From Candidatus Pacearchaeota archaeon (GTDB taxonomy: Archaea > Nanobdellota > Nanobdellia > Pacearchaeales > GW2011-AR1), in contig PBZO01000004.1 in assembly GCA_002731115.1 (NCBI GenBank), forward strand, positions 1-47,857: a stretch of DNA of 47,857 nt, written 5' to 3'. This document shows, one piece after another, positions 19,212 through 43,786 of the stretch; position 1 is the first letter of the stretch; the number at the start of each line of letters is the position of its first letter. A program made the translations under genes and the position numbers. Under the pieces are notes generated by a model. The model saw only the letters and a list, made by a program, of their open reading frames with translations, ran no database searches and had not been told where the DNA came from.

Positions 19212-19240
19212 TGCTTTTACATACACTCATCGTTAGTTAT
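19212..19240 (+). other. 3' strand of the 16S processing stem
   Basis: Complementary to 17565-17580 and 17619-17632 (see the 5' strand feature). Confidence 0.6.
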
Positions 19241-19285
19241 TAAAAAAATAAAAATTTAAAAACACCAACGGGTTCAAATAAAATA

Positions 19286-19358
19286 GGGCCCATTGTCCAA
19301 TGGCTTAAGATACTTCCCTTGCACGGAAGAGATCCGCGTTCAATTCGCGGTGGGTCCA
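19286..19358 (+). tRNA. tRNA-Ala (anticodon UGC) in the 16S-23S spacer, no encoded CCA
   Basis: Manual fold: acceptor GGGCCCA/TGGGTCC with the G3:U70 Ala identity pair; anticodon arm cttcc-cttgcac-ggaag; T arm ccgcg-ttcaatt-cgcgg. Confidence 0.9.
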
Positions 19359-19363
19359 TGATT

Positions 19364-19371
19364 TTTATAAA
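19364..19371 (+). promoter_or_regulatory. candidate internal TATA box (tttataaa) inside the rRNA spacer
   Basis: Same octamer as at 17536. Centred about 24 nt upstream of the ATG at 19391, which would give a leaderless transcript. Confidence 0.3.
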
Positions 19372-19390
19372 TTAAAAATAGAAATAAAAG

Positions 19391-19573
19391 ATGGCAAAAG
19401 AAATATTAGAATTAATAGTAGATGGAGAACATCAAAAACTTATAAGAACAAATGAGAATGGTAAAATCAAAGTAAGAATAAATGGAAGTATAGAATATTT
19501 TCAACCTAAGATAATAAAGAAAACTTATGAAGAGAAATATAAAGGAAAAGAAGTTAAATTAGAATATCGCTAA
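19391..19573 (+). CDS. hypothetical 60-aa protein encoded in the tRNA-Ala/23S spacer
   Basis: Uninterrupted 60-codon frame in very AT-rich sequence, ATG start, balanced K/E/I/G composition. No known motif. Confidence 0.35.
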   Translation: MAKEILELIVDGEHQKLIRTNENGKIKVRINGSIEYFQPKIIKKTYEEKYKGKEVKLEYR

Positions 19574-19746
19574 AGTGGGAAGTTTTAAAAACTCTCAATA
19601 ACAAAAACTCATATTAAATAAATCAAGTAAAATTAAAATCGTAATAAATAAATTTACAATTACAAATCATGCTCAACTATTGAGAAATGGTTCCAGAAAA
19701 TATATTTGGGATCATGTTGAGAACAAAAATTACTTTATGTTCAATG

Positions 19747-19768
19747 AAATAAGCAGTAAGAGAATATT
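19747..19768 (+). other. 5' strand of the 23S processing stem
   Basis: aaataagcagtaagagaatatt pairs with 22636-22657 aatatttctcttactgtttatt, with one bulged base on each strand. Confidence 0.55.
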
Positions 19769-19794
19769 CCCACTTAATTATATTTGGAAAAACA

Positions 19795-22620
19795 ATACTA
19801 CTATTTATACTGTTAGACGGATAGCTTGGTTTTGGTTCTTTTAAGACGTGGCAAGCTGCGATAAGCTTAGGGGAGTTGCATGCAAGCTTTGATCCTAAGA
19901 TTTCTTAACATGTAGAGATACATAATTACGTCGTGAATTGAAACATCTTAGTAACGACAGGAAAAGAAAATAAATAATTATTCCCTTATTAGCAGCGAGC
20001 GAAAAGGGAACAGGGCAAACTGAATCTGTTTTTGAAAAAAAATTAGAAATGTGGTGAAGATAAGTAACTAAGTTAATAAATCAAAATTTTCTGGAAAGAA
20101 ATACTTTAGAGGGTGATAGTCCCGTAGATGAAATTGATATGTTGCTCTTCAAAAGAGTAGGGCTTCCTGGATTGGAGGTCTGAATATGGCAGGATTAACT
20201 GCTAACCCTAAATAAAACCAAAGTCCGATAGCGCACTAGTACCGTGAGGGAAAGCTGAAAAGTACTCTTAACAGAGGGTTAAAAGACTTGAAATCTAATA
20301 GTTACAGTTTGTTACTGGTCTTAACATTTTATGTTAATAGATTTGTAACGTACGTTTTGAAGAACGGGCCAGGGAGTTTTTCTATATGGCGAGGCTAACT
20401 AATTTTATTAGGTAACCGAAGCAAAAGCAAGTCTGAAAGGGCGTTAGTCATATGGATAAGACCTGAAGCCAGATGATCTATTCATGGACAAGGTGAAGTC
20501 TTTCGAAAGAGAGATGGAAGCCTGAACCGTTGTTGTGTACATGCACTCGAATGATCTGTGAATAGGGGTGAAAAGCTTATCTAATTTGGCGATGGCTGGT
20601 TCCTGCTGAAATATGCCTTCGTATAGTCTTGTTTAGTTAGTTAACGGTGTAAAGTACGGATAAAACTCGCAGGAGCTAATGCTTACGGAGTTTTTTCCAA
20701 CTCAGAAATTGTTAATTGCTTAGAACAAGAAACAGGGTCAGTATGTAAGATACTGTTCCGAGAGTGGAATAACACAGACTAAAGTTAAGGTCCTAAAATT
20801 TATGCTAAGTGTATCGAAAGGTGTCTTGAACCTGAGACACTGGGGATGTAAGCTTAGAAGCAGCTATCATTTAAAGAAATCGTAACAGATCACCTATTGA
20901 GGTCCAAGGCCCTGAAAATGGACAGGGCTAAAGCATAATACCGATACTTTAGAGGCACTTATAAAAGTGTTCTGGTAAGCAGGCGTGTAAATTGTACAGA
21001 ATTTCTTTCTAAAGAAAGAATGGAACGATTTGCAATGAAAATCCTGGTAATAGTAGGATGTGATTTTTCTGAGAATGAAAAATGTCGTAAGAGCAAGGTT
21101 TCCTTGGCAATATATGTTAGCCAAGGGTTAGTCAGTACCTAAGTTGTATCTTAACTGAGTACAACGATGGACAACAGGTTAATATTCCTGTACTAATTGA
21201 ATTTTATATAGTATTATTTTGCTTTTGGATAAGTAAGCACTTGAAAGAGTGTTTTAATAAAGAAAACTGTCAAGGGTAATCCTTAGACGCAGATATAATT
21301 TATTAAACAAAATTACTGATTCCGAGAGCCAGTGAAAATGTTATACTCTTAATTCAGTTGGCTGTACCCATAACCAGCACTGGTGCTCTAGCTTAATAGG
21401 CTAAGACATGAAAGGGAAAACCAATTAAGGGAATTCGGCAAGTTAGTTCTGTAGCTTCGGCTGAAGGAATGTCTATTTTTGTTTTTTCAGAAATGTAGAT
21501 GCATTAATAGATCACAGTAACAAGGACGGCCCGACTGTTTACCAAAAACGTAGCCAAGTGCTAATCTGAAAAGACGTGTATACTTGGTGAGACCTGCCCA
21601 GTGGTGGTGTCTAAAACTCCTTTTCAAGGGAGCTAAGGTCCATCAAACGGCGGAGATAACTATGATCTTCTTAAGGTAGCGCAATACCCTGTCGTATGAA
21701 TTGCGACTTGCATGAATGGTTTAACGAGGTTGTCACTGTCCCTAATTGGAGCCTTCTGAATATACTTCGTGGTGAAAAGGCCACGGACGCCTAGTGGGAA
21801 GCTGAGACCTTGTGGAACTTTACTGCAACTTGTTGTTGTAATCTTAAGAGAAATGCATAGCATAAGTAGGAGCGTCGAAGCTGTTATTTCGGTGACAGTG
21901 GAGCAAACATGTAATACTACTCATTTTTTTTAAGATTGCTTACTCTATATGAAGACAGCAGCAGGCGGGCAGTTTGACTGGGGCGGTGCCCTGCCGAAAA
22001 AATATCGGTAGGACCCAAAGACAAACTCATCCAGCTTGGAAATCTGGAGTTGAGTGTGAGGGCAAAAGTTTGTCTAACTGTATTTTGAACAGCAAGAAAT
22101 GCAGAGGAGAAATCCGGGCCTAGTGAACCCACGTGCTTTTTTAATAGAAGCCGTGTCTGATAGAAAAGTTACCCCAAGGATAATAAGCTTGTCGCCCCCG
22201 ATAGTCCATATTGACGGGGCGGTTTGGTGTTTCGCTGTCGGCTCTCCCTAACCTGCGCGTGCAGAAGCGTGCAAGGGTGTCGGAGTTCACGCATTAAAAG
22301 GGATCGTTAGCTGGGTTAAGAACGTCGTGAGACAGTTTGTATGATATCTACTAGGTGTGTTATTGTCTGAGTGGAACAAGTTTTTAGTACGAGAGGAACG
22401 AAACCTGGGTGCCTCTGGTGAGCAGTTGTCAATTGGCAGGCTGCATAGCTACGCACTAAATGAATAAGAGCTGAATGCATCTAAGCTCGAAGTCATCCGC
22501 AAAACGAGACAATTAAAGCCGTCAAAGAAGATGACGTTGATAGAGTTGTTGTGTAAGATTCAAGTTTCTGGTGAGGCGAGAATTTCAGCATACAACCACT
22601 AAAAGCTTCAATTGTAGTAT
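19795..22620 (+). rRNA. rrl: 23S rRNA (ends approximate, +/- 25 nt)
   Basis: gacggatagcttgg...aagacgtggcaagctgcgataagc near the 5' end; sarcin-ricin loop agtacgagaggaac; gctgggttaagaacgtcgtgagacagtt. Terminal helix aatactac (about 19794) / gtagtatt (22615-22622). Confidence 0.9.
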
Positions 22621-22635
22621 TTTCTAAATATAAAA

Positions 22636-23988: not shown

Positions 23989-24362
23989 GTAAGTTGGGTA
24001 GTTAATTTCGGGACTTACGTTTTTAGATAAACAGATTTTGTTTAATATCAAAATCTAGTTCTGAGGAAGGTTCGCCCACCCTTGATAATTTATCAAGACA
24101 AGTCATCCTTGAAAAAGGACTGCTGTAAGGTAGAGCTCTGTTACAGAAACGACACAGCTTGCTTTGAGTTATGAATCATGCGAGAAACTTTGAAAAGCAA
24201 GATTTGATGAGACGAGCATCTTGACTGGTGCAAGGCCATATGAGCCGCATAGTCAAATATTAACACGAACTATTCGATACAGAGATTAAAATCTCTGTCC
24301 CTAAAACTCTCACGAGTTTTTGGTTACGAAGTTCGACAGAAGGCGACCTATTCCTAACTTAC
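23989..24362 (+). ncRNA. rnpB: RNase P RNA (about 374 nt)
   Basis: CR-I gaggaaggttcgccc (24063-24077), acagaaacg, CR-III gcaaggccatatgag (24230-24244), CR-V acagaaggcgacc (24336-24348). P4 can be drawn between ggaaggttcgcc and ggcgacctattcc with a bulged U/A. P1 is gtaagtt / aacttac. Confidence 0.8.
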
Positions 24363-25396: not shown

Positions 25397-26734
25397 ATGC
25401 CCTTAAAATTATATAATACTTTAACTAGAAAAAAAGAAATCTTTAAACCTATTCATAAAGATAAAGTTAATATGTATGTTTGTGGACCTACTGTTAATGA
25501 TATTCCCCATTTGGGCCATGCAAGACAACAAATTTCTTTTGATGTACTCAGAAAATATTTAATCTTTTTGGGATATAATATAAAATTTATTTCTAATATA
25601 ACTGATATTGAAGATAAGATAATTGATAAGGCTAATGAACTTAAGGAAAATATTGAAAAATTAACGAAAAGGAATATGAAGGCACATATGGAGGATTATA
25701 GAAAAATTGGTGTTAAGAAACCAGATATTCAACCAAAGGCAACAGAATATATTAAAGAGATGATTGATGTGATAGAAAAATTAGAAAAAAAAGGATATGC
25801 ATATATAATTGAAGATGATGGAGTTTATTTTGATATCTCCAAGTTTAAAGATTATGGAAAACTATCTCATCAAGATATTAAGAAACTAAAGGTTGGAATT
25901 AGGGTAAAAGTTAAAGATAAAAAAAGAAATAAGGAGGATTTTGTTTTATGGAAATTTTCAAGACCCTCTGAACCAAAGTGGAAATCTCCTTGGGGAGAGG
26001 GAAGACCTGGATGGCACATTGAATGTTCTGCAATGTCTGCTTCTATTCTGGGACTCCCCTTAGATATTCATGGAGGAGGACAGGATTTAATATTTCCTCA
26101 TCATGAAGATGAAATTGCCCAAAGTGAAGCAGCATATGATAAAAAATTTTCTAATTATTGGGTGCATAATGGGATGGTTAATGTAGATAGAGTGAAGATG
26201 AGTAAAAGTTTAGGAAATTTTAGAACAATTAGGGATTTGCTAAAATATTATTCTGGTAATACTATAAGGTATTTTGTAATGTCGAGCCAGTACAGGAAAC
26301 CAGTTGATTTTTCAAAAAAGACAATGGATAATGCAAGAAACTCATATAAAAGATTGAAAAATATTATTTCTGAAATAAAAGACGACAAAAAAACAAATAA
26401 AGAATATTTAGAAAAGTTCAAGAAAGTAATGGATGATGACTTAAATACTCCAAAAGCACTTCAAGTCTTATGGAATCTAGTTCGTGATAAAAAAGCTAAA
26501 GGAAAATATCAAACAATAAAAAAGATGGATGAAGTTTTTGGATTTGATTTATTAAAAAAAGAAAAAATAGAAATCCCAAAAAAAGTAAAAGAACTTGTTA
26601 GAGAAAGAGAGAAAATTAGGAAAGAGAAAAATTGGGAAGAAGCAGATAAAATAAGAGAGAAAATAAAAAAACTAGGATATTCTTTAGATGATACTAAGGA
26701 TGGAATTGTTGTAAGGAAGCTAAAAAAATATTAA
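25397..26734 (+). CDS. cysS: cysteine--tRNA ligase
   Basis: HLGH (IPHLGHAR) and KMSKS motifs, GRPGWHIECSAM zinc/Cys-binding segment. Confidence 0.9.
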   Translation: MPLKLYNTLTRKKEIFKPIHKDKVNMYVCGPTVNDIPHLGHARQQISFDVLRKYLIFLGYNIKFISNITDIEDKIIDKANELKENIEKLTKRNMKAHMEDYRKIGVKKPDIQPKATEYIKEMIDVIEKLEKKGYAYIIEDDGVYFDISKFKDYGKLSHQDIKKLKVGIRVKVKDKKRNKEDFVLWKFSRPSEPKWKSPWGEGRPGWHIECSAMSASILGLPLDIHGGGQDLIFPHHEDEIAQSEAAYDKKFSNYWVHNGMVNVDRVKMSKSLGNFRTIRDLLKYYSGNTIRYFVMSSQYRKPVDFSKKTMDNARNSYKRLKNIISEIKDDKKTNKEYLEKFKKVMDDDLNTPKALQVLWNLVRDKKAKGKYQTIKKMDEVFGFDLLKKEKIEIPKKVKELVREREKIRKEKNWEEADKIREKIKKLGYSLDDTKDGIVVRKLKKY

Positions 26735-26823: not shown

Positions 26824-28104
26824 ATGGTAAAGAAATCAGGATACAAAAGTTTTATTAATTTAAAATATAAGCCTAAGAAAACAGACCTTATCTGTCAATT
26901 CAAAGTTACTCCGGCTAAAGGTTATAATTTTAAGGATGTTGTTAGTATGGTTGCTGGAGAGAGTTCTGTTGGAACATGGACAGAGGTTAAAACAATGAAC
27001 CCAAAGATTGGGAAGACTCTTACTCCAAAAGTCTATTATTTAGATACAAAAAATAAGAGATGTAGAATTGCTTATCCTATTGAACTTTTTGAACTTGGAA
27101 ATTTACCTGAGATTATGTCGTCTATCGGAGGGAATATTTATGGGATGAAATCTGCTAAAGGGTTACGTTGGGAAGATATTGAAATCCCTAAAAAAATGTT
27201 AAAAAGTTTTAAAGGACCTCGCTATGGAATTAAAGGTATTAGGAAATACTTAAAAATTAAAAAAAGACCTTTAGTTGGAACAATTGTTAAACCAAAGGTT
27301 GGATTAACAGAATCTCAACATGCAAAAGTTGCTTATGAATCATGGTTAGGAGGATGTGATATTGTAAAAGACGATGAGAATCTAACCAATCAAAATTTTA
27401 ACAAATTTAAAAAAAGATTTTTATTAACAATTAAATTATTAAAAAAAGCTGAAAAAGAAACAGGTGAAAAAAAAGTCTATTTAATTAATTGTACTGCAGA
27501 AACAAAAGAGATGTTAAAACGAATTAAGTTTGTTGAAGATAATGGAGGAAATTATATTATGCTTGATATTATAACTCTTGGATGGGGAGCTTTACAAACT
27601 GCAAGAAATTTTACAAAATTGCCAATTCATGCACATAGAGCAGGCCATGCTATGTTTGATAGAGATTCTAGACATGGGATGGCTATGGAAGTTATAGCAC
27701 AATTAGCTAGAATGATTGGTGTAGATACACTTCATATTGGAACAGCTTATGGGAAAATGAGTGGGGGGAAAAAAGAAGTTCTCCATATTGAACAAGAAAT
27801 AGAATCTTCTTTTACTAAAGAAACAAAAGAAAATCTAAAACAGAGATGGTATGGAATCAAACCTATCTTTGGAGTTGCATCCGGAGGAGTTTATCCTCAA
27901 ATTGTCCCCCAAATTATCAAATTTATGGGAAATGAGGTTGTAATTCAGGCAGGAGGCGGAATTCATGGCCATCCAAAAGGGAGTATTTCTGGTGCAAAAG
28001 CAATGAGACAAGCAGTTGATGCGGTTATAAAAAACAAAAGTTTAAATGAATATTCAAAAACACATAAAGAGCTTAAAGAAGCTCTAAACAAGTGGAAAAA
28101 ATGA
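26824..28104 (+). CDS. rbcL: RuBisCO large-subunit homologue, form III-like (426 aa)
   Basis: GTIVKPKVGL, carbamylation/metal motif DIVKDDENL, HAHRAGHA, LHIGTAYGKMSGG, ASGGVYP, QAGGGIHGHP. All classic active-site positions appear intact. Confidence 0.85.
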   Translation: MVKKSGYKSFINLKYKPKKTDLICQFKVTPAKGYNFKDVVSMVAGESSVGTWTEVKTMNPKIGKTLTPKVYYLDTKNKRCRIAYPIELFELGNLPEIMSSIGGNIYGMKSAKGLRWEDIEIPKKMLKSFKGPRYGIKGIRKYLKIKKRPLVGTIVKPKVGLTESQHAKVAYESWLGGCDIVKDDENLTNQNFNKFKKRFLLTIKLLKKAEKETGEKKVYLINCTAETKEMLKRIKFVEDNGGNYIMLDIITLGWGALQTARNFTKLPIHAHRAGHAMFDRDSRHGMAMEVIAQLARMIGVDTLHIGTAYGKMSGGKKEVLHIEQEIESSFTKETKENLKQRWYGIKPIFGVASGGVYPQIVPQIIKFMGNEVVIQAGGGIHGHPKGSISGAKAMRQAVDAVIKNKSLNEYSKTHKELKEALNKWKK

Positions 28105-28777: not shown

Positions 28778-29200
28778 ATGGCAGTTTATGATATTGATGC
28801 TCAAGAATATAATTTAAAATTAGCTGAAAGCTTGAAAAAAATCCCTGAATTTAATCAACCAGAATGGTCTATATTTATAAAAACAGGACCTGCAAAAGAG
28901 AGGCCTATAGAAGACCCTGATTTCTGGCATAAACGGGCTGCAAGTATCCTAAAGCAAATTTATAAAAATAAAATTCTAGGAGTAAATAAATTCCGAACAA
29001 AATATGGAAGTAAAAAAAATAGAGGTTATGCTCCTGAAAAATTTAGAAGAGCAGGAGGGAAGATAATTAGAACTATTTTACAGCAATCTGATAAAGCAGG
29101 ATTTACTGAAATTGCAAAAGCAATTAAGGGCGTGAAAGGAAGAAAACCAGGAAGACAATTAACAGAAAAAGGTAAAGAATTCTTGGAGGGAATAAAATGA
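28778..29200 (+). CDS. rps19e: ribosomal protein eS19
   Basis: PEWSIFIKTGPAKERPIEDPDFWHKRAASILKQIY...GRQLTEKGKEFL. I prefer the ATG at 28778 over the GTG at 28763. Confidence 0.85.
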   Translation: MAVYDIDAQEYNLKLAESLKKIPEFNQPEWSIFIKTGPAKERPIEDPDFWHKRAASILKQIYKNKILGVNKFRTKYGSKKNRGYAPEKFRRAGGKIIRTILQQSDKAGFTEIAKAIKGVKGRKPGRQLTEKGKEFLEGIK

Positions 29201-29424
29201 AAATATATTCTAGAGATTATATAATCTCTGAAAACATTAGTAGAAAAATAATAGAATATTATAGACATAGAATCTTGGATAAGAGTATTTATTTTGGGAG
29301 AGGATATATTGGTTTTACTAATAATAAAAGAATTATAGAGATTAATACACTTTCAAAGAATAGAAATCAACTAATTAAAGCTAAATTAGAAGATGAATTT
29401 AATTTTAAACTAAAAACTGCATAA
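29197..29424 (+). CDS. hypothetical 75-aa protein inside the ribosomal protein operon
   Basis: ATGA overlap with the rps19e stop, and its own stop lies 1 nt before the rpl39e start. No Cys and no recognisable motif. Confidence 0.45.
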   Translation: MKIYSRDYIISENISRKIIEYYRHRILDKSIYFGRGYIGFTNNKRIIEINTLSKNRNQLIKAKLEDEFNFKLKTA

Positions 29425-30230: not shown

Positions 30231-31103
30231 ATGGTAAATTTTCAAAATAAAGATATAAAAGAGCTTCTAGAATTTGGAATAATCAATATTGATAAATCGT
30301 CTGGTCCAACATCATTTAATATTTCTGATTTTGTAAGAAAAAAATTAAATTTAAGAAAAACTTCTCATTTTGGTACTTTGGATCCAAAAGTAACAGGAGT
30401 TTTACCCATTGCATTAAATAGAGCTTGTAAACTTACAGGATATTTCTTAGGAGAAGATAAAGAATATATTGGAGTTATGAGGATTCACGAGGATATCTCC
30501 TTAGATAAAATTAAGAAAACAATAAAAGAGAAATTTCTCGGGAAAATTAAACAAACTCCTCCGGTGAGATCTCGTGTAAAAAGGCAAGAGAGAATAAGGG
30601 AAATAAAAAAATTTAATATCTTAGAAAAAAATGGAAAGAATATATTATTTCATGTTGAGTGCGAAGGTGGAACTTATATTAGAAAAATTTGTAGTGACTT
30701 GGGAGATTATATGAAAATTGGGACTCATATGTTGGAATTAAGGAGAATTCGTGCAGGAATTATTAGAGAACATGATAAAAAATACCCTTCTATCAACCTA
30801 TATGAATTTCTCCAAGCTGTTGATGAATATAAAAAGGGGAATGAAGAGTTATTGAAAAGAATGATTATTCCTGCGGAGATTATAACCCAATTACATCCAA
30901 TAATCAAAGTTAAGGAGAGAGAAGTAAAAAGATTATTAACTGGAAAACCTATTTTTAAGGAAGATTTGACTAGAAAAGAGAAAATGGAAACTGGGAAAAT
31001 TATCTGTGTTTTTTCAGAAGAAAGATTTATAGGGATGTATAAAGTTACTAATAATGGAGATATTTTTGCAAAATCAGAATTTGTAATGCAACCTATAAAA
31101 TGA
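30231..31103 (+). CDS. cbf5: Cbf5/TruB-family pseudouridine synthase with PUA domain (H/ACA RNP catalytic subunit)
   Basis: INIDKSSGPTSF...HFGTLDPKVTGVLPIAL catalytic Asp motif; C-terminal PUA-like part. Confidence 0.85.
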   Translation: MVNFQNKDIKELLEFGIINIDKSSGPTSFNISDFVRKKLNLRKTSHFGTLDPKVTGVLPIALNRACKLTGYFLGEDKEYIGVMRIHEDISLDKIKKTIKEKFLGKIKQTPPVRSRVKRQERIREIKKFNILEKNGKNILFHVECEGGTYIRKICSDLGDYMKIGTHMLELRRIRAGIIREHDKKYPSINLYEFLQAVDEYKKGNEELLKRMIIPAEIITQLHPIIKVKEREVKRLLTGKPIFKEDLTRKEKMETGKIICVFSEERFIGMYKVTNNGDIFAKSEFVMQPIK

Positions 31104-31675
31104 AACACTTTATATATTTTTCAAGAAATGCATCAACTACAGGGAATTTTAAAGATTTAATGAAAGCTGGACGAATGGATATTGTTATTCACTCAATAAT
31201 TCAGGGGTTATTTTTATCTAATAGTTTTAGAGAAGATGTTAAAATGCATTTGGTTTTTTATGGTATGCCTGACCCTCCAAAACATATTGAAATACAAGTA
31301 ACTCCTGACTTGGAGATTAGTAAGAAAGATGTTGCTAATTTAATTAAGAAAATTCTATATAAGTATAAAAAGGATAAAAAAACAGAAGTTTTTCCAAAAT
31401 GTTTTATTGAAAAAAAGAGTTTTTTAAAAGTAATTGAAGAACTAATTAATGAAGATAAAGAGATTTTTATTTTAGACAAATCAGGAGTTGATATTAGAAA
31501 AGCAGAGATTTCTAATAATTGTGCTTTTGTCTTGGGAGATCACGATGGTTTACCAAAAAAAGAATTAAGAAGATTAAAGAAGATAGCAAAACCCATCTCT
31601 ATTGGTCCAAAAACATATTTTTCAAGTCAAACGATTGCAATTGTTAATAATGAACTTGATAGAAGAAACATATAA
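31100..31675 (+). CDS. trmY: SPOUT methyltransferase, TrmY-like (tRNA pseudouridine-54 N1-methyltransferase family)
   Basis: AGRMDIVIHSIIQGLFLSNSFREDV...FVLGDHDGLPKKE...ISIGPKTYFSSQTIAIVNNELDRR. ATGA overlap with cbf5. Confidence 0.65.
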   Translation: MKHFIYFSRNASTTGNFKDLMKAGRMDIVIHSIIQGLFLSNSFREDVKMHLVFYGMPDPPKHIEIQVTPDLEISKKDVANLIKKILYKYKKDKKTEVFPKCFIEKKSFLKVIEELINEDKEIFILDKSGVDIRKAEISNNCAFVLGDHDGLPKKELRRLKKIAKPISIGPKTYFSSQTIAIVNNELDRRNI

Positions 31676-31719
31676 AAGAATAATAAAATAACTAAATACT
31701 ATGAAGACTGATTAGAAAT

Positions 31720-32580
31720 ATGAGAAATTATAATATAGAACAAATCTATTTTAATCATGTTAAAAAGACTCCTTATTTAACTTTTGAAGAAGAAAGAAAA
31801 CTTGGAGAAAGAAAAGATAAGGGGAATAAGTATGCTTTTAAGAAACTTGTTGAGTCAAATTTAATGCTAGTTGTGAGTATTGCACATAAATATAATATTA
31901 ATAGAAAACACTTAAATCTCTTTGATTTAATACAAGAAGGAAATCTGGGATTAATAAAAGCAGTAACAAAATTTGATCAAACAAAAGGATATAAATTTTC
32001 TACATATGCAACATGGTGGATTAGACAAGGTATAACTAAGGCTATACTAGATTATGATCACACAGTAAAAGTTTCTGCTAGAATACAAGGGATGAAAAAT
32101 AAAATTATAAAATATAAAATAGAATTTATAACAAAAGAAAAGAGAAACCCAACTAATAAGGAAATTTGTGAGAATACTGGAATTAATCTAAAAATAGTGG
32201 AAAAAATAATTAATAGATATTCTCAATTAGAAATCTCATTACAAGCTCCTATAAATGGAAAAAATAATACTATTAAAAAGCCAGTAGAATATTTTATTAA
32301 AAGTGAACTAGAAGTAAATGATGAAATACCTATAGAGTATATAAAATTAACAAAGACGATGGATAAATTGCTTAAAACACTTTCACCAACAGAAGAAATG
32401 GTTTTAAGAAGAAGATTTGGAATCTTTAAGAATTATAAGATGCAGGGTAAAAATGGAAACTTAGCAGAAATTGGCAGGGACCTTAATCTTACAAGAGAGA
32501 GAATTAGACAGATACAAAAGAAGGCATTAGAAAAGATGAACCATATCTCAAGAAGAAGAGAATTAGAAGCATTTGTATAA
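31720..32580 (+). CDS. bacterial-type RNA polymerase sigma-70 family factor (regions 2, 3 and 4 present)
   Basis: Region 2: LVVSIAHKY...[41 protein letters not shown]. Region 3: [22 protein letters not shown]...SLQAPI. Region 4: [15 protein letters not shown]...[26 protein letters not shown]. Confidence 0.9.
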
Positions 32581-32646: not shown

Positions 32647-34041
32647 ATGGGTGAAAAGGCAATAAAAGATAAATGCGGGGTTTTTGGAATATTTGGAGTT
32701 GATAATCCTGCAGAATATACTTATCTAGGATTGCATAATATCCAGCATAGAGGTCAAGAAACTTGCGGGATTGTAACATCTTCTGAAGAAAAAAAAGAAT
32801 CAAAGGGAAAATTCAAACAATACCATGGCAAAGGTATAGTTAATGATGTTTTTAATGAAAAAATTCTTGAGAAATTAAATGGAAGAGCAGCAATAGGACA
32901 TGTTAGATATTCAACAAGAGGAGGGTCGTCTCTTAATAATGCCCAGCCAATAATTGTAAGCACAAAAAATGGAGTTATTGCAATAGCTCATAATGGACAA
33001 TTTGCAAACTATAAAAGATTAAAAAGAGAACTTATAGAAAAAGGAAGTATCTTCAAAACAACAAGTGATACTGAAATTGCTCTTCATAAATTCTCAAAAT
33101 CTAATGCTGATTCAATAAAAGAGAATATCTATGAAGCATTTAAAGATATAAAACCATCTTATTCAATTGTTATGCTTACTAAAAAAGAGCTTATTGGATT
33201 AAGAGACTCTTCTGGTGTTAGACCCTTGGTTATTGGTTATATTGAAGATAAAGATGCATATGTTTTAGCTTCTGAAAGTGTGGCATTCGATATTATTGGT
33301 GCAAAATATATAGGTGAAGTAAAATCAGGAGAAATAGTAATTATTGATGACAATGGATTAAGAAGAGAACAACTTTTTAATCCTGGGAAACAACAAAGGT
33401 GTATTTTTGAATGTATCTATTTTTCAAGACCAGACTCCTTTGTTTTTAGCAAAGATATAACAATAAGTGTCGCAAGAAAAGAATTTGGACGACAAATTTA
33501 TCGAGAATGCCCTGTTGATGCTGATGTAATTATTCCTGTTCCTGATTCGAGTATTGATGCGGCTCTTGGTTATAGTTATGAATCAAAAATCCCTTTTGAT
33601 TGGGGTTTTGTAAGAAATCATTATATTGGAAGAACTTTTATTCAACCAACACAAACAAAAAGAGATGTAGGAGTAATAAAAAAATTTAATCCTAATAAGT
33701 CAATAGTAGATGGAAAAAGGGTTGTTGTAGTTGATGATTCTATTGTAAGAGCAAGTACATTAAAAAAACTTATTAAATTATTGAGAAAATTTGGAGCAAA
33801 AGATATACATGTTGCAATAAGTTGTCCTCCTTATAAATATAGTTGTTATTTGGGTATAGATACTTCTGAAAAGGAAAAATTAATTGCAAATGAAAAATCA
33901 ATAGAAGAAATAAAAAATTTTATTGATGCTGACTCCCTTCATTATTTAAGTAAACAAGGTATGTTAGACAATAAATATCTAAGAGAAGGTGGATTTTGCA
34001 CTTATTGTTTTGATGGAGAAGAAGTAATTAAAAGAGAATAG
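32647..34041 (+). CDS. purF: amidophosphoribosyltransferase
   Basis: Short propeptide, then the CGVFGIFG Ntn nucleophile; VVVDDSIVRASTLKKLI PRPP motif; Cys residues positioned for a 4Fe-4S cluster (CIFECIYF, CTYCFDG). Confidence 0.9.
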   Translation: MGEKAIKDKCGVFGIFGVDNPAEYTYLGLHNIQHRGQETCGIVTSSEEKKESKGKFKQYHGKGIVNDVFNEKILEKLNGRAAIGHVRYSTRGGSSLNNAQPIIVSTKNGVIAIAHNGQFANYKRLKRELIEKGSIFKTTSDTEIALHKFSKSNADSIKENIYEAFKDIKPSYSIVMLTKKELIGLRDSSGVRPLVIGYIEDKDAYVLASESVAFDIIGAKYIGEVKSGEIVIIDDNGLRREQLFNPGKQQRCIFECIYFSRPDSFVFSKDITISVARKEFGRQIYRECPVDADVIIPVPDSSIDAALGYSYESKIPFDWGFVRNHYIGRTFIQPTQTKRDVGVIKKFNPNKSIVDGKRVVVVDDSIVRASTLKKLIKLLRKFGAKDIHVAISCPPYKYSCYLGIDTSEKEKLIANEKSIEEIKNFIDADSLHYLSKQGMLDNKYLREGGFCTYCFDGEEVIKRE

Positions 34042-34812: not shown

Positions 34813-36267
34813 ATGGGTCGTGAAGATCAAATAATTAAAGAGAGGTTGAGAAAACTTAAGGAATTAAGGGAAGAAGGAATAAATCCTTATCCTAATAAGT
34901 TTGATAAAAAACAAACTTGTCTAGAATGTTCAAAATCCAAGATAGGAACAAAAGTCAAAACAGCTGGAAGATTAATGACTAAAAGAGATTTAGGAAAAAT
35001 TATTTTTTGTACACTAAGGGATGAGCTTGGACAAACACAATTAGTTCTACGAGATAAAGAAACACCCAAAAAAGAAAAAAAGTTTTTTAAAAAATACGTT
35101 GATTCAGGGGATTTTGTGGGAGTTCAAGGAGAAATAATAAAAACAAAAACCGGAGAGATTTCAATCTTGGTAAAAAGAATAGAATTGCTCTCAAAATCAA
35201 TTTTACCTCTGCCAGAAAAAAGAAAAGGAATTCAAAACGATGAAGATAGGTACAGAAAAAGATATCTAGATATTTTGATGAATCCTGAAGTAAAAGAAAT
35301 GTTCATAAAAAAATCAAAATTCTGGAATACAATTAGAGGATTCTTAATGGGCAAGGGTTTTTTAGAAGTTGAGACCCCTATCTTAGAGAGTTCTGCAGGA
35401 GGAGCTTCTGCAACTCCTTTTTCAACTCATCATAATGCACTGGATCTTGACGTGTTTCTAAGAATTTCCATGGGAGAACTCTGGCAAAAAAAATTAATGG
35501 TTGCAGGTTATGAAAAAACTTTTGAGATTGGAAGACAGTTCAGAAATGAAGGAATGGATATGGATCATTTACAAGACTATACTCAAATGGAATTTTATTG
35601 GAGTTATGCAAATTATCGAGATGGAATGAAATTAGTTGAAGAAATGTACAAAAAAGTTGCTAAAGAAGTCTTTGGAACTTTGAAATTTGAAACTTATGGC
35701 TATAAACTTGATTTAGGAAAAAGATGGGAAGAATATGATTTTGAAAAAGTAATAAAAAAATATACAAAAATAGATATCTACAAAACAACTGAAAAAGAAA
35801 TTGAAAAAAAATTAAAAGAATTAAAAGTAGAGTATGATCCAAGAGTCAATAAGTGGAGGCTCATTGATGTTTTATGGAAATATTGTAGAAAAAAATTAAC
35901 TGGCCCAGGGTTTTTGGTTGGTCAGCCTGTAGAAATTGAACCTTTGGCAAAAAGAATTCCAGAAGATCCAAGAAAAGTTCAGGAATTTCAAGTTATAATT
36001 GCTGGAACGGAGATGGGAAAAGGATATAGTGAACTTAATGACCCAATTGACCAGGAAGAAAGATTCAAAACACAAGCAGAATTAAAAAAAGCCGGGGACA
36101 CCGATGCCCAAGAACATGACAAAGATTTTGTTGAAGCATTAAAACAGGGTATGCCCCCAACTTGTGGCTTTGGAGTCTCAGAAAGATTATTCTCATATTT
36201 AGCTGGCAAACCAATAAGAGAATGCGTGATTTTTCCTTTAATGAAACCAGAAGAAAAAGGAGGTTAA
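34813..36267 (+). CDS. lysS: lysine--tRNA ligase, class II
   Basis: OB-fold N-terminus, motif 1 GFLEVETPIL, motif 2 FEIGRQFRNEG, motif 3 GFGVSERL. Confidence 0.9.
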   Translation: MGREDQIIKERLRKLKELREEGINPYPNKFDKKQTCLECSKSKIGTKVKTAGRLMTKRDLGKIIFCTLRDELGQTQLVLRDKETPKKEKKFFKKYVDSGDFVGVQGEIIKTKTGEISILVKRIELLSKSILPLPEKRKGIQNDEDRYRKRYLDILMNPEVKEMFIKKSKFWNTIRGFLMGKGFLEVETPILESSAGGASATPFSTHHNALDLDVFLRISMGELWQKKLMVAGYEKTFEIGRQFRNEGMDMDHLQDYTQMEFYWSYANYRDGMKLVEEMYKKVAKEVFGTLKFETYGYKLDLGKRWEEYDFEKVIKKYTKIDIYKTTEKEIEKKLKELKVEYDPRVNKWRLIDVLWKYCRKKLTGPGFLVGQPVEIEPLAKRIPEDPRKVQEFQVIIAGTEMGKGYSELNDPIDQEERFKTQAELKKAGDTDAQEHDKDFVEALKQGMPPTCGFGVSERLFSYLAGKPIRECVIFPLMKPEEKGG

Positions 36268-37124: not shown

Positions 37125-38024
37125 ATGCTTAAAAATAATCTAACTTTTATAACTATAATGAGATACTTATTAGTAATTTTGTTTGTTTTAATTATTCCAA
37201 ACATTTCTGCAGTAATTATTTCAGAAATTATGTATTCTCCAAATTTTGATGAAAACTACAATGAATGGGTTGAAATATATAATGAAGGGTCGGATGTTAA
37301 TTTAAGTAATTGGAGTTTGTGTGGCAAAGATATCTTAGAAGGCTATATAGATCATAATGAAGCTGAAGCTCTAAAAAATGAAGGAGGATTAATCTTGACT
37401 GCTGGAAGTTATGCTATTATCACAGATGGGGGCAGTGGAACAGAAGTTTATTCAAATTTTGATGTTTCCGGGTTAGCATTACATGTAGACGCAGCAAGCC
37501 TATGTGGAAGACTTTCTAATACTGGAAAAGAGATTTCTTTAGAAGACAATCAAGAAAGTTTAATTGATAGTGTTGCATATAGTCCTGATTGGGGTGCACA
37601 AGACAATAATAATAGTTTGCAGTTTGACGGGGAATGGTGTGAAGCTATATCAACTCCTGGAAATGAAAATAATTGTGGAATAGAAGAAATTCAAGAAGAA
37701 ATAACAGAAACAGAATCACCAGAGATTGTTGAAGATTCTAATGAAATCCTTGAAGAAGTAATATCTAACGAAATTGAAGTATCTGAAGAAATAGAGGAGG
37801 ATGTCAAAAAAGAACTAACTGGTTTATCTATTGAAGAAGATAAACCGGAAAATATTGAATTAAGTATAATAAAACTAAATCCAAAAGACATAAAAACTGA
37901 AGAGAATAAGGAATATTTAGGTATAGAAAGTTATGCAATGTATGGATTTGTATCTTTTTGTATATTGCTTACTATTCTTTTTATATTTAGGAAAAATAAG
38001 TTTAATAAAAATGAGTTTAATTAG
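37125..38024 (+). CDS. lamin tail domain (LTD) surface protein with acidic stalk and C-terminal TM anchor
   Basis: VIISEIMYSPNFDENYNEWVEIYNEGSDVNLSNWSL...SNTGKEISLEDNQESLIDSVAY LTD pattern. Signal anchor, E-rich linker, TM plus RKNKFNK tail. Confidence 0.7.
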   Translation: MLKNNLTFITIMRYLLVILFVLIIPNISAVIISEIMYSPNFDENYNEWVEIYNEGSDVNLSNWSLCGKDILEGYIDHNEAEALKNEGGLILTAGSYAIITDGGSGTEVYSNFDVSGLALHVDAASLCGRLSNTGKEISLEDNQESLIDSVAYSPDWGAQDNNNSLQFDGEWCEAISTPGNENNCGIEEIQEEITETESPEIVEDSNEILEEVISNEIEVSEEIEEDVKKELTGLSIEEDKPENIELSIIKLNPKDIKTEENKEYLGIESYAMYGFVSFCILLTILFIFRKNKFNKNEFN

Positions 38025-42508: not shown

Positions 42509-43786
42509 TTATTTCTTAACTCTATCTTTAGACTTCTTATTATCAATTAAATTTCTCCTAATAACATAATTAACTGGATTTTTTATTAACTTGCAAAAAT
42601 CGTTTGGAGAACAAATACCAATCCCCTGATAAAATTCTTTGCAATTTGGAGGCATTATAGTATTTTTTTTATAACTCCATAATACCTGAGATTTGATATA
42701 CCCTTGTTTTAGAGGATATTCATTTTTATTATTCCAATCATCTATTCTTTTTTCTAACTCATCTCTATCCATCCCAATAGAGCGAAATAAATTTATTAAG
42801 ACAAATAATGCTCTTTTCTTTCCATCACTAATTCCTTTTAATATATTTTGAATGCAAGGAGGAAAGTTTTTTTCTGATAAATTAATTAATTTAATTGGTT
42901 TGTAATTAAAATCTTTTTTTTCTTTTTTTTCGCTATCACCTTCCTTATACCAATCGAGTGCCTGCATTAAAAGTTCTGAAGCTTCTCCTTCTTTTGCATC
43001 TGGCATAAAATTCTTAATTTTTACTTTCATGGGGTCTGCATCTTTTAATTGAAAATCCTTTATTTCTTCAGGATTTATTACCACGCTTGCTAAAGCTGTT
43101 TTTTCATGAAGTGAATAAGGTGTTCTAAATAAATGTCTTGGAGAAACTAAAATAATATCCGGCATTACTTCTTTTGATGCTTGAAAATCTCTTATATATT
43201 TATTTGGTTTAGAAAGTTTAGTAATTTCTTCGATTAATTTCTTTTCTGTTTGTTTTATAATATATTTCACAATTATCCTTGGCCATTCTGGAAACATATT
43301 GGAAGTTTTTATTTCATTAATTTCCTTGGGAAAAGCAATCCATGGAATAATAATATGCAGGCCCTTTGATCCTGAAAATTTTACTCCAATGTTTTTAACT
43401 CCATGAAATTTTAACATATTAATTATAACTTCTGCAGAAATCCTGCTGTAATCAAAATACTTACTATCAATGTCAATTACTAAATCCCAACCAGTTCTTA
43501 ATTCATTCATTTGTTTTTCATTTAACCCTGTAGATAAACTTAAGGGATCACTCCAAATCTCTTCTGAACAATGAAAGGATGTTGCTCCTTTTTTTACTAA
43601 TTCAAAAACATCATTCGGGTACTCTAGAGAATCTGGTCTTTTTCCAAAACCTTCAAAATATCTTGGGGTAACCTCGCGATATCTTGAAAATTCATAAATT
43701 GCTTTTTGAACTTCGGGTTTTGAATAATAAAATTCAGTTATTTTTCTAATTCTTTGTTCCTTAATACCTTTTTCTTGATTTCCCAT
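42509..43786 (-). CDS. priS: DNA primase catalytic subunit PriS with fused PriL-like Fe-S C-terminal domain
   Basis: AEP motifs WDLVIDIDS (DxD), FSGSKGLHIII, PRHLFRTPYSLHEKT. The C-terminal part has FPPCIQNIL plus three more Cys (PPNC, GIC, DFC) and NPVNY. Confidence 0.8.
   Translation of the reverse strand: MGNQEKGIKEQRIRKITEFYYSKPEVQKAIYEFSRYREVTPRYFEGFGKRPDSLEYPNDVFELVKKGATSFHCSEEIWSDPLSLSTGLNEKQMNELRTGWDLVIDIDSKYFDYSRISAEVIINMLKFHGVKNIGVKFSGSKGLHIIIPWIAFPKEINEIKTSNMFPEWPRIIVKYIIKQTEKKLIEEITKLSKPNKYIRDFQASKEVMPDIILVSPRHLFRTPYSLHEKTALASVVINPEEIKDFQLKDADPMKVKIKNFMPDAKEGEASELLMQALDWYKEGDSEKKEKKDFNYKPIKLINLSEKNFPPCIQNILKGISDGKKRALFVLINLFRSIGMDRDELEKRIDDWNNKNEYPLKQGYIKSQVLWSYKKNTIMPPNCKEFYQGIGICSPNDFCKLIKNPVNYVIRRNLIDNKKSKDRVKK

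What the first reader, a model, noticed from the sequence alone, without database searches (positions are those of the whole stretch)
31720..32580. Intact bacterial-type sigma-70 factor embedded among archaea-specific genes
The 286-aa ORF carries every DNA- and core-contacting sigma-70 region. These are region 2 ([41 protein letters not shown]), region 3, and region 4.2 ([17 protein letters not shown]).

Its contiguous neighbours are archaeal or eukaryote-type only: TrmY, Cbf5, eL31, eL39 and eS19 upstream; histone, Hjc, PriS and PCNA downstream; RpoK at 15026.

Archaeal RNAP initiates with TBP/TFB and has no known sigma docking. A conserved full-length sigma here therefore needs a different explanation. 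It could be a repurposed DNA-binding regulator, a factor acting on the RNAP of a bacterial partner, or a recent transfer still under selection.

I have a vague recollection that sigma-like ORFs have been noted in some DPANN bins. I cannot verify this, and I know of no functional explanation.
Basis: partly seen in the sequence, partly recalled or inferred. Interest (0 to 1): 0.8.

Follow-up and report, generated by a model that had tools for sequence, protein, structure and literature searches.

The report
Bacterial-type sigma factor in Pacearchaeota
A marine DPANN (Pacearchaeota-like) archaeon really does carry an intact, long-resident bacterial-type sigma-70 gene among its housekeeping genes; such genes were already reported in DPANN in 2021, and this one is weakly constrained and dispensable, because frameshifted copies occur in the same species and in its closest relative.

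Summary
Observation confirmed. ORF 31720-32580 (+, 286 aa) is a sigma-70-family protein (regions 1.2-4, no region 1.1) on an archaeal contig that also carries archaeal 16S/23S rRNA and RNase P RNA. It is not chimeric. The same context recurs in at least 24 assemblies, composition is host-like, and a sister species has the gene in the same TrmY-sigma-PurF slot with neighbour-like dS.

The transfer is old. Window, sister and a 337-aa paralogue (P0129) form a 100%-bootstrap clade with four shared indels, about 45% identical to Bacillota RpoD/SigA.

Constraint is weak and uneven. Omega is 0.46 against about 0.1 for neighbours. Region 4 (0.20) and the -10/-35 contact residues are kept. Regions 3.0-3.2 are near-neutral (0.82), and the acidic finger has turned basic.

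The gene is dispensable. All 16 sister contigs are frameshifted at an (AG)n tract in region 4.2, and four assemblies of the window species carry a +1 G that splits the gene.

Sigma-70 genes in DPANN archaea were published in 2021 (PMC8204110), so this is a new member of a known, functionally unexplained kind.

My best guess, which is inferred and not shown, is an accessory DNA-binding regulator that uses sigma4 and sigma2. Docking on the archaeal RNAP, or slow decay, cannot be excluded.

The parts
31720..32580 (+). Sigma-70-family ORF, 286 aa including stop. Regions 1.2, 2, 3 and 4 are present; there is no region 1.1.
31741..31830 (+). Region 1.2 (residues 8-37). Pfam score is just below threshold. 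Keeps 6/14 bacterial-invariant residues.
31831..32052 (+). Region 2.1-2.4 (residues 38-111): core-binding helix and -10 recognition/melting residues. Keeps 48/56 bacterial-invariant residues. Equivalents of D403, Q406, E407, N409, Y425, F427, T429, Y430, W433, W434, R436, Q437 and T440 are all kept. Carries a clade-specific +2 aa insertion (NINRKH).
32053..32334 (+). Regions 3.0-3.2 (residues 112-205), degenerate: 13/49 invariant residues kept. Extended -10 residues H455/E458 are R/G here. Finger loop has a +3 aa insertion and net charge +2 (bacteria -6). Omega 0.82. AF2 pLDDT is below 30 for residues 168-204.
32335..32577 (+). Region 4 (residues 206-286), the most constrained part (omega 0.20). 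The -35 contact residues R584, E585, R586, R588 and Q589 are all kept. Carries a clade-specific +5 aa insertion between 4.1 and 4.2.
32494..32501 (+). (AG)4 tract inside the codons for T-R-E-R of the region 4.2 recognition helix. It is in frame here. In the sister species it is (AG)5 or (AG)6, both out of frame.
32338..32343 (+). Site of a segregating +1 G insertion (after 32340, GAGTAT[G]ATAAAA) in four independent assemblies of the same species. It splits the gene into a 215-aa product (regions 1.2-3) and a 73-aa product (region 4). The adjacent E/D polymorphism is at 32337.
31688..31699 (+). AT-rich motif ATAACTAAATAC, ending 20 nt before the ATG and conserved in the sister species (ATAATTAAATAC). 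It is a candidate archaeal TATA-like element for a near-leaderless transcript. This is an inference only.
31100..31675 (+). TrmY (upstream syntenic neighbour), 90.6% aa identity to the sister species, omega 0.095.
32647..34041 (+). PurF amidophosphoribosyltransferase (downstream syntenic neighbour), 87.7% aa identity to the sister species, omega 0.125.

Best explanation
SHOWN. The ORF is a real chromosomal gene of a marine Pacearchaeota-like DPANN archaeon. It descends from one old transfer of a bacterial group-1/2-type sigma-70 gene; the closest bacterial sequences are Bacillota RpoD/SigA at about 45% identity. Since then it has been inherited vertically. It belongs to a very small archaeal sigma clade: the window species, its sister species, and one deeper paralogue. 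Selection kept the reading frame open over most of the divergence between the two species, but the protein evolves 4-5 times faster than the neighbouring housekeeping genes. Constraint sits on sigma4 (the -35-type helix-turn-helix) and on the DNA-contact and structural residues of sigma2. The parts that only make sense inside a bacterial RNA polymerase are lost or drifting: region 1.1, the region 3.0 extended -10 reader, and the acidic region 3.2 finger. The gene is dispensable, because frameshift alleles are fixed in the sister species and segregate in the window species.

INFERRED (mechanism). The protein most likely no longer works as a canonical initiation factor. I think it is an accessory sequence-specific DNA-binding regulator. 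Without the auto-inhibitory region 1.1, free sigma can bind DNA on its own (this rests on my knowledge of E. coli sigma70 truncations, not on a test here). Sigma4 would read a TTGACA-like duplex element and sigma2 an AT-rich TATAAT-like element, modulating TBP/TFB-dependent transcription of a few genes. Most archaeal regulators are bacterial-type HTH proteins that act in this way.

The confidence of 0.5 is for the whole statement including the mechanism. I would put the 'shown' part alone at about 0.9.
For: Real and archaeal:
- Archaeal rRNAs and RNase P RNA on the same contig, and archaeal housekeeping genes all round.
- The exact protein is on 28 contigs from 5 sources, and all 24 contigs read show the same context.
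- Tetranucleotide correlation 0.943, at the 58th percentile; GC3 0.17, like the neighbours.

Vertical and old:
- The orthologue sits in the same Cbf5-TrmY-sigma-PurF slot in a species whose neighbours are 86-92% identical.
- dS is 0.45, the same as the neighbours.
- Window + sister + P0129 are monophyletic in 200/200 NJ bootstraps and share four indels absent from bacteria.
- An exhaustive search of 1.84 billion representatives with residues 108-257 finds only these two clusters above the bacterial background.

Selection:
- Omega 0.46 (CI 0.31-0.67), against about 0.09-0.19 for the neighbours.
- About 11 premature stops would be expected under neutrality; none is seen (P < 1/5000).
- Region 4 omega 0.20, and 0.11 for the 25 codons after the sister's frameshift. 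Region 3 omega 0.82.
- All five -35 contact residues are kept in all three proteins. All -10 residues are kept in the two intact proteins.
- Region 2 keeps 48/56 invariant residues, against 13/49 in regions 3.0-3.2. Finger charge is +2, against -6 in bacteria.
- No region 1.1.

Dispensable:
- (AG)5/(AG)6 frameshifts in all 16 sister contigs.
- +1 G split allele in four independent assemblies of the window species.
Against: - No binding site, target gene, expression data or partner was identified. The mechanism is an inference from the pattern of constraint.
- The core-binding surface of region 2.2 (equivalents of D403, Q406, E407, N409) is also fully kept in the window protein. A pure DNA-binder would not obviously need it, which favours the RNAP-docking rival. 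Against that rival, the paralogue has N409I.
- With the nearer outgroup P0129, the intact window copy has changed as much as the frameshifted sister copy (25 vs 27 unique changes, p = 0.78). So the window copy is not demonstrably better conserved overall.
- All within-species variants seen are nonsynonymous or disruptive: Q175R, E206D, the P/L and G/S variants, and the frameshift. That would also fit ongoing relaxation.
- Sigma70-type -35/-10 pairs are not enriched in 20 kb of the window (110 found against 105 +/- 11 in shuffles). The test has almost no power at 28% GC.
Confidence: 0.5

Rival explanations
1. Relic in slow decay. The gene was useful in the past but is now effectively neutral in both species and is being lost. 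The intact window allele simply has not been hit yet.
For: - Omega 0.46, 4-5 times that of the neighbours.
- Equal numbers of lineage-specific changes in the intact and the frameshifted copy.
- Independent frameshifts in the sister species (fixed) and in the window species (about 4 of about 46 contigs).
- In L055-L057 the only two differences from the window in 1.7-1.9 kb are both in sigma, and both change the protein.
- Extremely narrow distribution.
Against: - The frame stayed open over dS = 0.45, where about 11 stops per lineage would be expected under neutrality.
- Region 4 omega 0.20, and 0.11 for the codons after the sister's frameshift.
- DNA-contact residues are preserved across the deep paralogue split.
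- The intact allele dominates in the window species.
- The sister population co-occurs with an intact paralogue.
Confidence: 0.25
2. Hybrid initiation factor. Sigma2 docks on the clamp coiled-coil of the archaeal RNAP (Rpo1N), the site used by TFE and Spt5 and homologous to the bacterial beta-prime clamp helices. It helps to melt or select AT-rich promoters, so it acts as a true sigma-like or TFE-like factor on an archaeal polymerase.
For: - Region 2.2 core-binding residues and all melting aromatics are kept in the window protein.
- DPANN lack TFE-beta, according to the review PMC7289017.
- Sigma and TFB are argued to be homologous and to occupy equivalent positions on RNAP (PMC8131849).
Against: - The finger and region 3.0, which thread through the polymerase, are drifting and have changed charge.
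- The paralogue has lost the N409 equivalent.
- The gene is dispensable.
- No RNAP large subunit was available to test the interface, and no multimer prediction tool was on hand.
Confidence: 0.15
3. Mobile-element or defence-associated sigma. The family entered through, or works for, a virus, prophage or defence island (compare MzaA, and the rpoS-like genes on DPANN viruses).
For: - The paralogue P0129 lies in an island-like context with a SoFic-like Fic protein, an SNF2 helicase with weak ZorD/DpdE similarity and an HNH-repeat protein.
- Two rpoS-like genes are reported on DPANN viral/prophage genomes (PMC12647753).
- MzaA is the only PADLOC hit for both proteins.
Against: - The window copy sits in a conserved housekeeping block between TrmY and PurF.
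- The MzaA match covers only the generic sigma C-terminal domains and scores lower than RpoD.
- There is no relative in IMG/VR.
- The nearest integrase-like gene (XerA type, 711-1505) is 30 kb away.
Confidence: 0.05
4. The sigma is delivered to, or acts on, the RNA polymerase of a bacterial partner or host.
For: Residues for bacterial core binding and for -10/-35 reading are retained. DPANN archaea are generally thought to be symbionts (PMC8204110).
Against: - The first residues align directly to region 1.2, so there is no obvious N-terminal export signal. No secretion genes are adjacent.
- Regions 3.0-3.2, needed for efficient initiation on bacterial RNAP, are degenerate.
- No bacterial host is known for this lineage.
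Confidence: 0.03
5. Assembly chimera or bacterial contamination at the gene borders.
For: None beyond the bacterial affinity of the protein.
Against: - At least 24 independently assembled contigs show the identical context.
- Synteny in a second species with matching dS.
- Host-like GC, GC3 and tetranucleotides.
Confidence: 0.01

Closest known systems
Sigma-70 genes of DPANN archaea (protein family fam00359; Castelle et al. 2021, Front Microbiol, PMC8204110)
   Same: A bacterial sigma-70-type gene on a DPANN archaeal contig, validated by co-encoded archaeal markers. No anti-sigma factor is nearby and the function is unexplained.
   Different: That report stresses Woesearchaeota. This is a marine Pacearchaeota-type lineage. 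The clade found here (window, sister, P0129) stands apart from everything else in a 1.84-billion-protein search of its region 3-4.1. I could not obtain the Woesearchaeota sequences to test whether the two are directly related.
Bacterial primary and group-2 sigma factors (RpoD/SigA, RpoS), e.g. B. subtilis SigA (PDB 7ckq) and S. aureus SigA (8x6f)
   Same: Collinear regions 1.2-2-3-4, about 45% identity. Region 2 and the 4.2 recognition helix are almost unchanged, with the same -10/-35 contact residues.
   Different: No region 1.1. Four private indels. Regions 3.0-3.2 are degenerate and the finger is basic. Scores are far below the RpoD/RpoS equivalog cut-offs. It is encoded in a genome with an archaeal transcription apparatus.
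rpoS-like genes on DPANN viruses/prophages (Nat Commun 2025, PMC12647753)
   Same: Sigma-family genes associated with DPANN genomes.
   Different: Those are on viral or prophage contigs from acid mine drainage. The window gene is in a syntenic housekeeping block and has no relatives in IMG/VR.
MzaA, the sigma-70-family component of the MZA anti-phage system (NF041931 / PDLC02203)
   Same: Shares the sigma regions 2-4 at its C-terminus.
   Different: MzaA is about 700 aa with a long N-terminal part that is absent here. Only profile positions 428-668 of 683 match, the score is below that for RpoD, and no defence partners lie next to the window gene.
Archaeal TFB / eukaryotic TFIIB, proposed distant homologues of sigma (PMC8131849)
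   Same: Helix-turn-helix initiation factors that read promoter DNA upstream of the melted region.
   Different: This protein is a bona fide bacterial-type sigma by sequence, not a TFB. It has no Zn-ribbon or cyclin folds.

Membership tests
Sigma-70 family (superfamily level) | Region 2 domain (core binding / -10 recognition) | tested here: met
   Pfam Sigma70_r2 62.8 bits vs cut-off 24. 48/56 bacterial-invariant residues kept.
Sigma-70 family (superfamily level) | Region 4 helix-turn-helix (-35 recognition) | tested here: met
   Pfam Sigma70_r4 52.6 bits vs 24.1. Equivalents of R584, E585, R586, R588 and Q589 all present.
Sigma-70 family (superfamily level) | Passes a curated whole-protein family threshold | tested here: met
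   TIGR02937 (sigma-70 superfamily model) 99.3 bits vs cut-off 42.9.
Sigma-70 family (superfamily level) | Region 3 domain | tested here: inconclusive
   Pfam Sigma70_r3 23.6 bits vs cut-off 25.3. The region is collinear with SigA, but only 13/49 invariant residues are kept.
Sigma-70 family (superfamily level) | Binds a bacterial-type core RNA polymerase and directs promoter-specific initiation | not testable with these tools
   No biochemical assay or multimer prediction was available, and the rest of the genome is not in hand.
Primary (group 1) sigma, RpoD/SigA | Score above the RpoD equivalog thresholds | tested here: not met
   NF006666 217.6 vs 572; TIGR02393 212.3 vs 354.
Primary (group 1) sigma, RpoD/SigA | N-terminal region 1.1 | tested here: not met
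   The protein starts at region 1.2. There is no PF03979 hit, whereas most bacterial top hits have it.
Primary (group 1) sigma, RpoD/SigA | Near-invariant region 3.0 and acidic region 3.2 finger | tested here: not met
   3/16 and 5/17 invariant residues kept. H455/E458 are R/G. Finger net charge +2 against -6.
Group 2 sigma (RpoS type) | Score above the RpoS equivalog threshold | tested here: not met
   TIGR02394 202.6 vs 378.7. The architecture (no region 1.1) is nevertheless RpoS-like.
DPANN archaeal sigma-70 genes (fam00359, PMC8204110) | Sigma-70-annotated gene on a contig shown to be DPANN by co-encoded markers | tested here: met
   Archaeal rRNA, RNase P RNA and housekeeping genes are on the same contig. 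The sister orthologue is deposited as Candidatus Pacearchaeota.
DPANN archaeal sigma-70 genes (fam00359, PMC8204110) | Sequence clustering with the published family members | not testable with these tools
   The held supplementary files contain no matches to 'fam00359' or 'sigma', and sequences cannot be fetched by accession.
MzaA (MZA defence system sigma) | Full-length match including the N-terminal domains, with Mza partner genes adjacent | tested here: not met
   Only profile positions 428-668 of 683 match. NF041931 scores 205 vs cut-off 800. The neighbours are TrmY and PurF.

The most novel reading that the evidence does not exclude
A bacterial sigma has been domesticated as a working accessory initiation or melting factor of an archaeal RNA polymerase. 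Sigma2 would dock on the Rpo1N clamp coiled-coil, the TFE/Spt5 site, in a lineage that lacks TFE-beta, while sigma4 reads a promoter-proximal element. That would be a natural cross-domain hybrid transcription initiation system. The recurrent frameshifts at the (AG)n tract and at 32340 would then be on/off variation of that regulon.
Probability: 0.12. Interest if true: 0.9.

Novelty: new member of a known kind. Interest (0 to 1): 0.5.

Why it matters
Archaea initiate transcription with TBP, TFB and TFE, so a selectively maintained bacterial sigma in an archaeon is a natural experiment. It asks whether the two initiation systems can be mixed, or how a sigma is re-used once it is separated from its polymerase.

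The existence of such genes in DPANN is already published. What this locus adds is a tractable case:
- Orthologues in two closely related species.
- A deep paralogue.
- A clear map of which sigma modules are still under selection (sigma4, and the DNA-contact residues of sigma2) and which are not (region 1.1, region 3.0, the finger).
- Natural loss-of-function alleles that could be correlated with expression or ecology.

If the protein is only a dispensable HTH regulator or a decaying relic, the finding is a modest footnote to horizontal gene transfer into DPANN. If it touches the archaeal RNAP, it would matter for the evolution of transcription initiation.

Tried and rejected
1. 'The frameshifted sister copy is the fast-evolving one and the window copy is well conserved.' A relative-rate test with bacterial outgroups first suggested this (25 vs 9, p = 0.006). 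I withdrew it after the nearer outgroup P0129 gave 27 vs 25 (p = 0.78). The asymmetry holds only at bacterial-conserved sites, mainly region 2.

2. A profile search with the archaeal-specific middle region (A2) in the 5.8-billion-protein index returned nothing, not even the query's own protein. I treat this as a word-index limitation, not as a negative result. The exhaustive HMMER search replaced it.

3. The first homology search missed the 52%-identical paralogue P0129 because of its word prefilter. Lists from that tool are therefore not exhaustive.

4. The GTDB species-representative scan found only Clostridia RpoD (40-43% identity). It found no archaeal relatives and not the window's own species.

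5. The IMG/VR scan found nothing.

6. A clade-specific DNA probe (NKIIK[YH]xIEFI) on the metagenome contigs found only the sister locus and the P0129 locus, plus 19 chance hits.

7. Programmed frameshifting as an explanation for the sister's lesion: rejected. The (AG)5 and (AG)6 alleles need different shifts.

8. Phase variation: not supported. No in-frame sister allele was seen among 16 contigs, or among the strongest matches listed. The tract length does differ between 99.98%-identical contigs.

9. Enrichment of sigma70-type promoters: none, and the test is not informative at 28% GC. The best-looking site upstream of sigma itself (31656-31684) falls partly in a stretch that is deleted in the sister.

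10. MzaA/defence membership for the window gene: rejected.

11. The supplementary tables of PMC8204110 were searched for the family. Nothing relevant is held.
Full report
1. THE OBSERVATION

Profile searches show a true sigma-70-family protein rather than a generic HTH:
- Pfam Sigma70_r2 scores 62.8 bits and Sigma70_r4 52.6 bits, both far above threshold. Sigma70_r3 (23.6 vs 25.3) and region 1.2 (21.4 vs 22) fall just below.
- The best NCBIfam models are RpoD and RpoS (about 200-218 bits). These are far below their equivalog cut-offs, but the sigma-70 superfamily model is passed.
- The closest solved proteins are Firmicutes SigA (S. aureus 8x6f, B. subtilis 7ckq, C. difficile 7l7b; E about 5e-50). 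They align collinearly from region 1.2 to the C-terminus.
- An AF2 model (pLDDT 68; domains 76-88) matches only sigmaA/sigmaS chains of holoenzyme structures.

There is no region 1.1. The protein begins at region 1.2, while most bacterial top hits carry an extra 80-200 N-terminal residues.

2. THE GENOME IS ARCHAEAL AND THE CONTIG IS NOT CHIMERIC

The same contig carries archaeal 16S rRNA, tRNA-Ala, 23S rRNA and archaeal RNase P RNA. It also carries proteasome alpha, SBDS, exosome Rrp4/41/42, RpoK, eS19, eL31, Cbf5, TrmY, histone, Hjc, a PriS-PriL fusion and PCNA.

The immediate downstream genes are not archaea-specific, contrary to the finding. They are PurF, acylphosphatase, RNase HI and a bacterial-type class II LysRS.

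Evidence against a chimera:
- The exact protein occurs on 28 contigs from NCBI, JGI, Logan, ENA and Tara. All 24 contigs that were read show the same neighbourhood.
- A second assembly (L001) differs from the window by 5 SNPs in 20.9 kb.
- The gene's GC (26.3%), GC3 (0.17) and tetranucleotide profile (r = 0.943, 58th percentile of gene-sized windows) are indistinguishable from the host.

3. A SISTER SPECIES HAS THE GENE IN THE SAME SLOT

A marine Tara lineage deposited as Candidatus Pacearchaeota (MAH03516.1) has the orthologue between TrmY and PurF, in an otherwise collinear block.

| Measure | Neighbouring genes | Sigma |
|---|---|---|
| Protein identity between the species | 86-92% | 61-64% |
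| dS | 0.3-1.0 | 0.45 |
| dN | about 0.05 | 0.21-0.24 |
| omega | about 0.09-0.19 | 0.46-0.52 |

The equal dS means the gene was present before the two species split.

4. THE ACQUISITION IS MUCH OLDER THAN THAT SPLIT

- An exhaustive HMMER search of 1.84 billion representative proteins with the least bacteria-like part (residues 108-257) found the sister (2e-44) and one further protein, P0129 (337 aa, 4e-22). Both are well above the bacterial background, which starts at about 4e-11.
- P0129 equals MAH03911.1, 'RNA polymerase subunit sigma [Candidatus Pacearchaeota archaeon]'. It is 52% identical to the window protein.
- In an NJ tree of 79 sigma sequences the three archaeal proteins are monophyletic in 200/200 bootstraps.
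- They share four indels that bacteria lack: +2 aa in region 2.1, +1 in region 3.1, +3 in the region 3.2 finger, and +5 between regions 4.1 and 4.2.
- A clade-specific DNA probe found no further members in the metagenome collection. The GTDB and IMG/VR scans found none either.

This is therefore a small, old, lineage-specific sigma family, not a recent import. The nearest bacterial sequences are Clostridia/Bacillota RpoD at 40-46% identity. Low-GC compositional attraction could contribute to that affinity, so I regard the donor as only weakly indicated.

5. WHERE SELECTION ACTS

The table below counts columns that are at least 95% conserved in 118 bacterial RpoD sequences.

| Region | Window keeps | Sister keeps |
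|---|---|---|
| 2 | 48/56 | 36/56 |
| 4.1 | 9/13 | 8/13 |
| 4.2 plus insertion | 20/35 | 16/35 |
| 3.0 | 3/16 | 7/16 |
| 3.1 | 5/16 | 5/16 |
| 3.2 | 5/17 | 6/17 |

Residues are mapped below onto E. coli sigma70 numbering. The numbering and the residue roles come from my own knowledge of that protein.
- All five -35 contact residues (R584, E585, R586, R588, Q589) are kept in all three archaeal proteins.
- All -10 recognition and melting residues (Y425, F427, T429, Y430, W433, W434, R436, Q437, T440) are kept in the two intact proteins. The frameshifted sister copy has Y425N, Q437S and R441N.
- The extended -10 readers H455/E458 are R/G in the window protein.
- The finger loop has gone from net charge -6 in bacteria to -3 (P0129), 0 (sister) and +2 (window).

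Region-wise omega between window and sister:

| Region | omega | 95% CI |
|---|---|---|
| 3 | 0.82 | 0.43-1.98 |
| 2 | 0.57 | 0.29-1.37 |
| 1.2 | 0.38 | 0.12-1.25 |
| 4 | 0.20 | 0.10-0.41 |

A simple neutral simulation predicts about 11 premature stops per lineage over the observed synonymous distance. The probability of none is below 1/5000. So the frame was held open by selection for most of that time.

6. THE GENE IS DISPENSABLE

Sister species:
- Every contig read (16) is frameshifted inside the codons for the region 4.2 recognition helix.
- The window has (AG)4 at 32494-32501, which is in frame. Fifteen sister contigs have (AG)5 and one has (AG)6.
- The (AG)5 and (AG)6 contigs are otherwise 99.978% identical over 18.5 kb, so the tract is unstable.
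- The 25 codons after the lesion are intact in the original frame, with omega 0.11 and dS 0.93. The break is therefore recent.

Window species:
- Four independent assemblies (ENA, JGI and two Logan runs; 99.5-99.9% identical to the window) share a +1 G after position 32340, outside any homopolymer.
- It splits the gene into a 215-aa product (regions 1.2-3) and a 73-aa product (region 4).
- Intact alleles are on about 42 contigs and split alleles on about 4.

Two further points:
- The sister's broken copy and the intact paralogue P0129 come from the same three data sets (ERZ909119, ERZ908531 and the Tara assembly CEQE), and their accession numbers are close together. They probably share a genome, but this is not proven.
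- No P0129 orthologue from the window species was found.

7. A CORRECTION I HAD TO MAKE

With bacterial outgroups the sister looked accelerated (25 vs 9 unique changes). With the nearer outgroup P0129 the two lineages are equal (27 vs 25, p = 0.78). The intact window copy is therefore also fast-evolving. It has simply placed its changes in regions 1.2 and 3 rather than in region 2.

8. MECHANISM

Shown: this is an old, vertically inherited, weakly constrained, dispensable sigma-family gene. Its sigma4 and the DNA-contact surface of its sigma2 are conserved. The modules specific to the interior of the polymerase are not.

Inferred: it most likely acts as an accessory sequence-specific DNA-binding regulator. 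Free sigma lacking region 1.1 can bind promoter DNA. This is established for E. coli sigma70 truncations and rests on my own knowledge, not on a test here.

Rivals:
- Docking of sigma2 on the archaeal clamp coiled-coil. The region 2.2 core-binding residues are kept in the window protein. DPANN lack TFE-beta according to PMC7289017. The sigma/TFB equivalence is argued in PMC8131849.
- Slow decay of a relic.
- A mobile-element or defence role. This is suggested only by the island-like context of the paralogue (a SoFic-like Fic protein, and an SNF2 helicase with weak ZorD/DpdE similarity) and by rpoS-like genes on DPANN viruses (PMC12647753).
- Action on a bacterial partner's polymerase.

Sigma70-type promoter pairs are not enriched (110 found against 105 +/- 11 in shuffles), but this test has no power at 28% GC.

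9. COMPARISON WITH WHAT IS KNOWN, AND NOVELTY

Castelle et al. 2021 (PMC8204110) already reported sigma-70 genes in DPANN genomes, especially Woesearchaeota. They excluded mis-binning, noted the lack of anti-sigma factors, and called the mechanism unclear. Public databases already name this protein and its relatives as sigma factors. The finding is therefore a new member of a known but unexplained kind.

New here:
- The definition of a Pacearchaeota-specific clade with a deep paralogue.
- The module-by-module map of constraint.
- The recurrent natural frameshift alleles.

I score interest at 0.5. The open question is real and this locus makes it testable. But the phenomenon is published, and the evidence for dispensability lowers the odds of a central role.

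Noticed in passing
L002:8487-8520; L003:10766-10800 (window equivalent 32494-32501): The (AG)n tract inside sigma region 4.2 differs, (AG)6 against (AG)5, between two contigs that are otherwise 99.978% identical over 18.5 kb. It is a locally hypermutable dinucleotide repeat in an archaeal coding sequence. Both lengths are out of frame.
   Followed up: yes
window 32340 (L054:2668-3529, L055:323-1184, L056 and L057:324-1185): A +1 G allele, found in four independent assemblies of the window species, splits sigma into overlapping ORFs of 215 aa and 73 aa. The 73-aa ORF is exactly the sigma4 domain and starts at an internal ATG that overlaps the upstream stop (ATGGATAA). Whether the halves are made is unknown.
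   Followed up: partly
L027:6177-8944 (also L026, L028-L032, L046): The intact paralogue P0129 follows two co-directional ORFs of 479 aa and 97 aa, with gaps of 8 and 12 nt (operon-like). Neither has a Pfam, PADLOC or PHROG hit. The surroundings hold a SoFic-like Fic protein, an ATP-grasp (MvdD-type), an HNH-repeat protein and a 1113-aa SNF2 helicase with weak ZorD/DpdE similarity.
   Followed up: partly
window 34813-36267 (+): The lysyl-tRNA synthetase is the bacterial-type class II enzyme (TIGR00499 lysS_bact, 460.8 bits, above the 427.6 cut-off). It is another bacterial-type gene in the same syntenic block as sigma.
   Followed up: no
window 25397-26734 (+): CysRS is only 54-56% identical between the two species, although its neighbours are 85-91% identical (dN 0.35, dS 0.88, omega 0.39). 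It is either unusually fast-evolving or was replaced in one lineage.
   Followed up: no
window 26824-28104 (+): Type III RuBisCO (TIGR03326, 555 bits, above cut-off), 90.6% identical in the sister species.
   Followed up: no
window 42509-43786 (-): A single 425-aa ORF matches both the primase small subunit (PriS, residues 113-238) and the large subunit (PriL, residues about 250-420). It appears to be a PriS-PriL fusion.
   Followed up: no
window 23989-24362 (+): The archaeal RNase P RNA match spans 374 nt against a 288-position model, so the RNA carries substantial insertions. It lies just downstream of the 16S-tRNAAla-23S operon (17751-22622). Rfam reported no 5S rRNA in the window.
   Followed up: no
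window 711-1505 (+) and 7903-10989 (+): A XerA-type tyrosine recombinase (NF040815, 201.7 bits, just under its 220 cut-off), and a 1028-aa S8 subtilase with Ig-like domains, probably a secreted or surface protease.
   Followed up: no
window 29197-29424 (+) and 37125-38024 (+): Two other genes in the block show raised omega between the species: a 75-aa ORF of unknown function (0.56) and a lamin-tail-domain protein (0.385).
   Followed up: no
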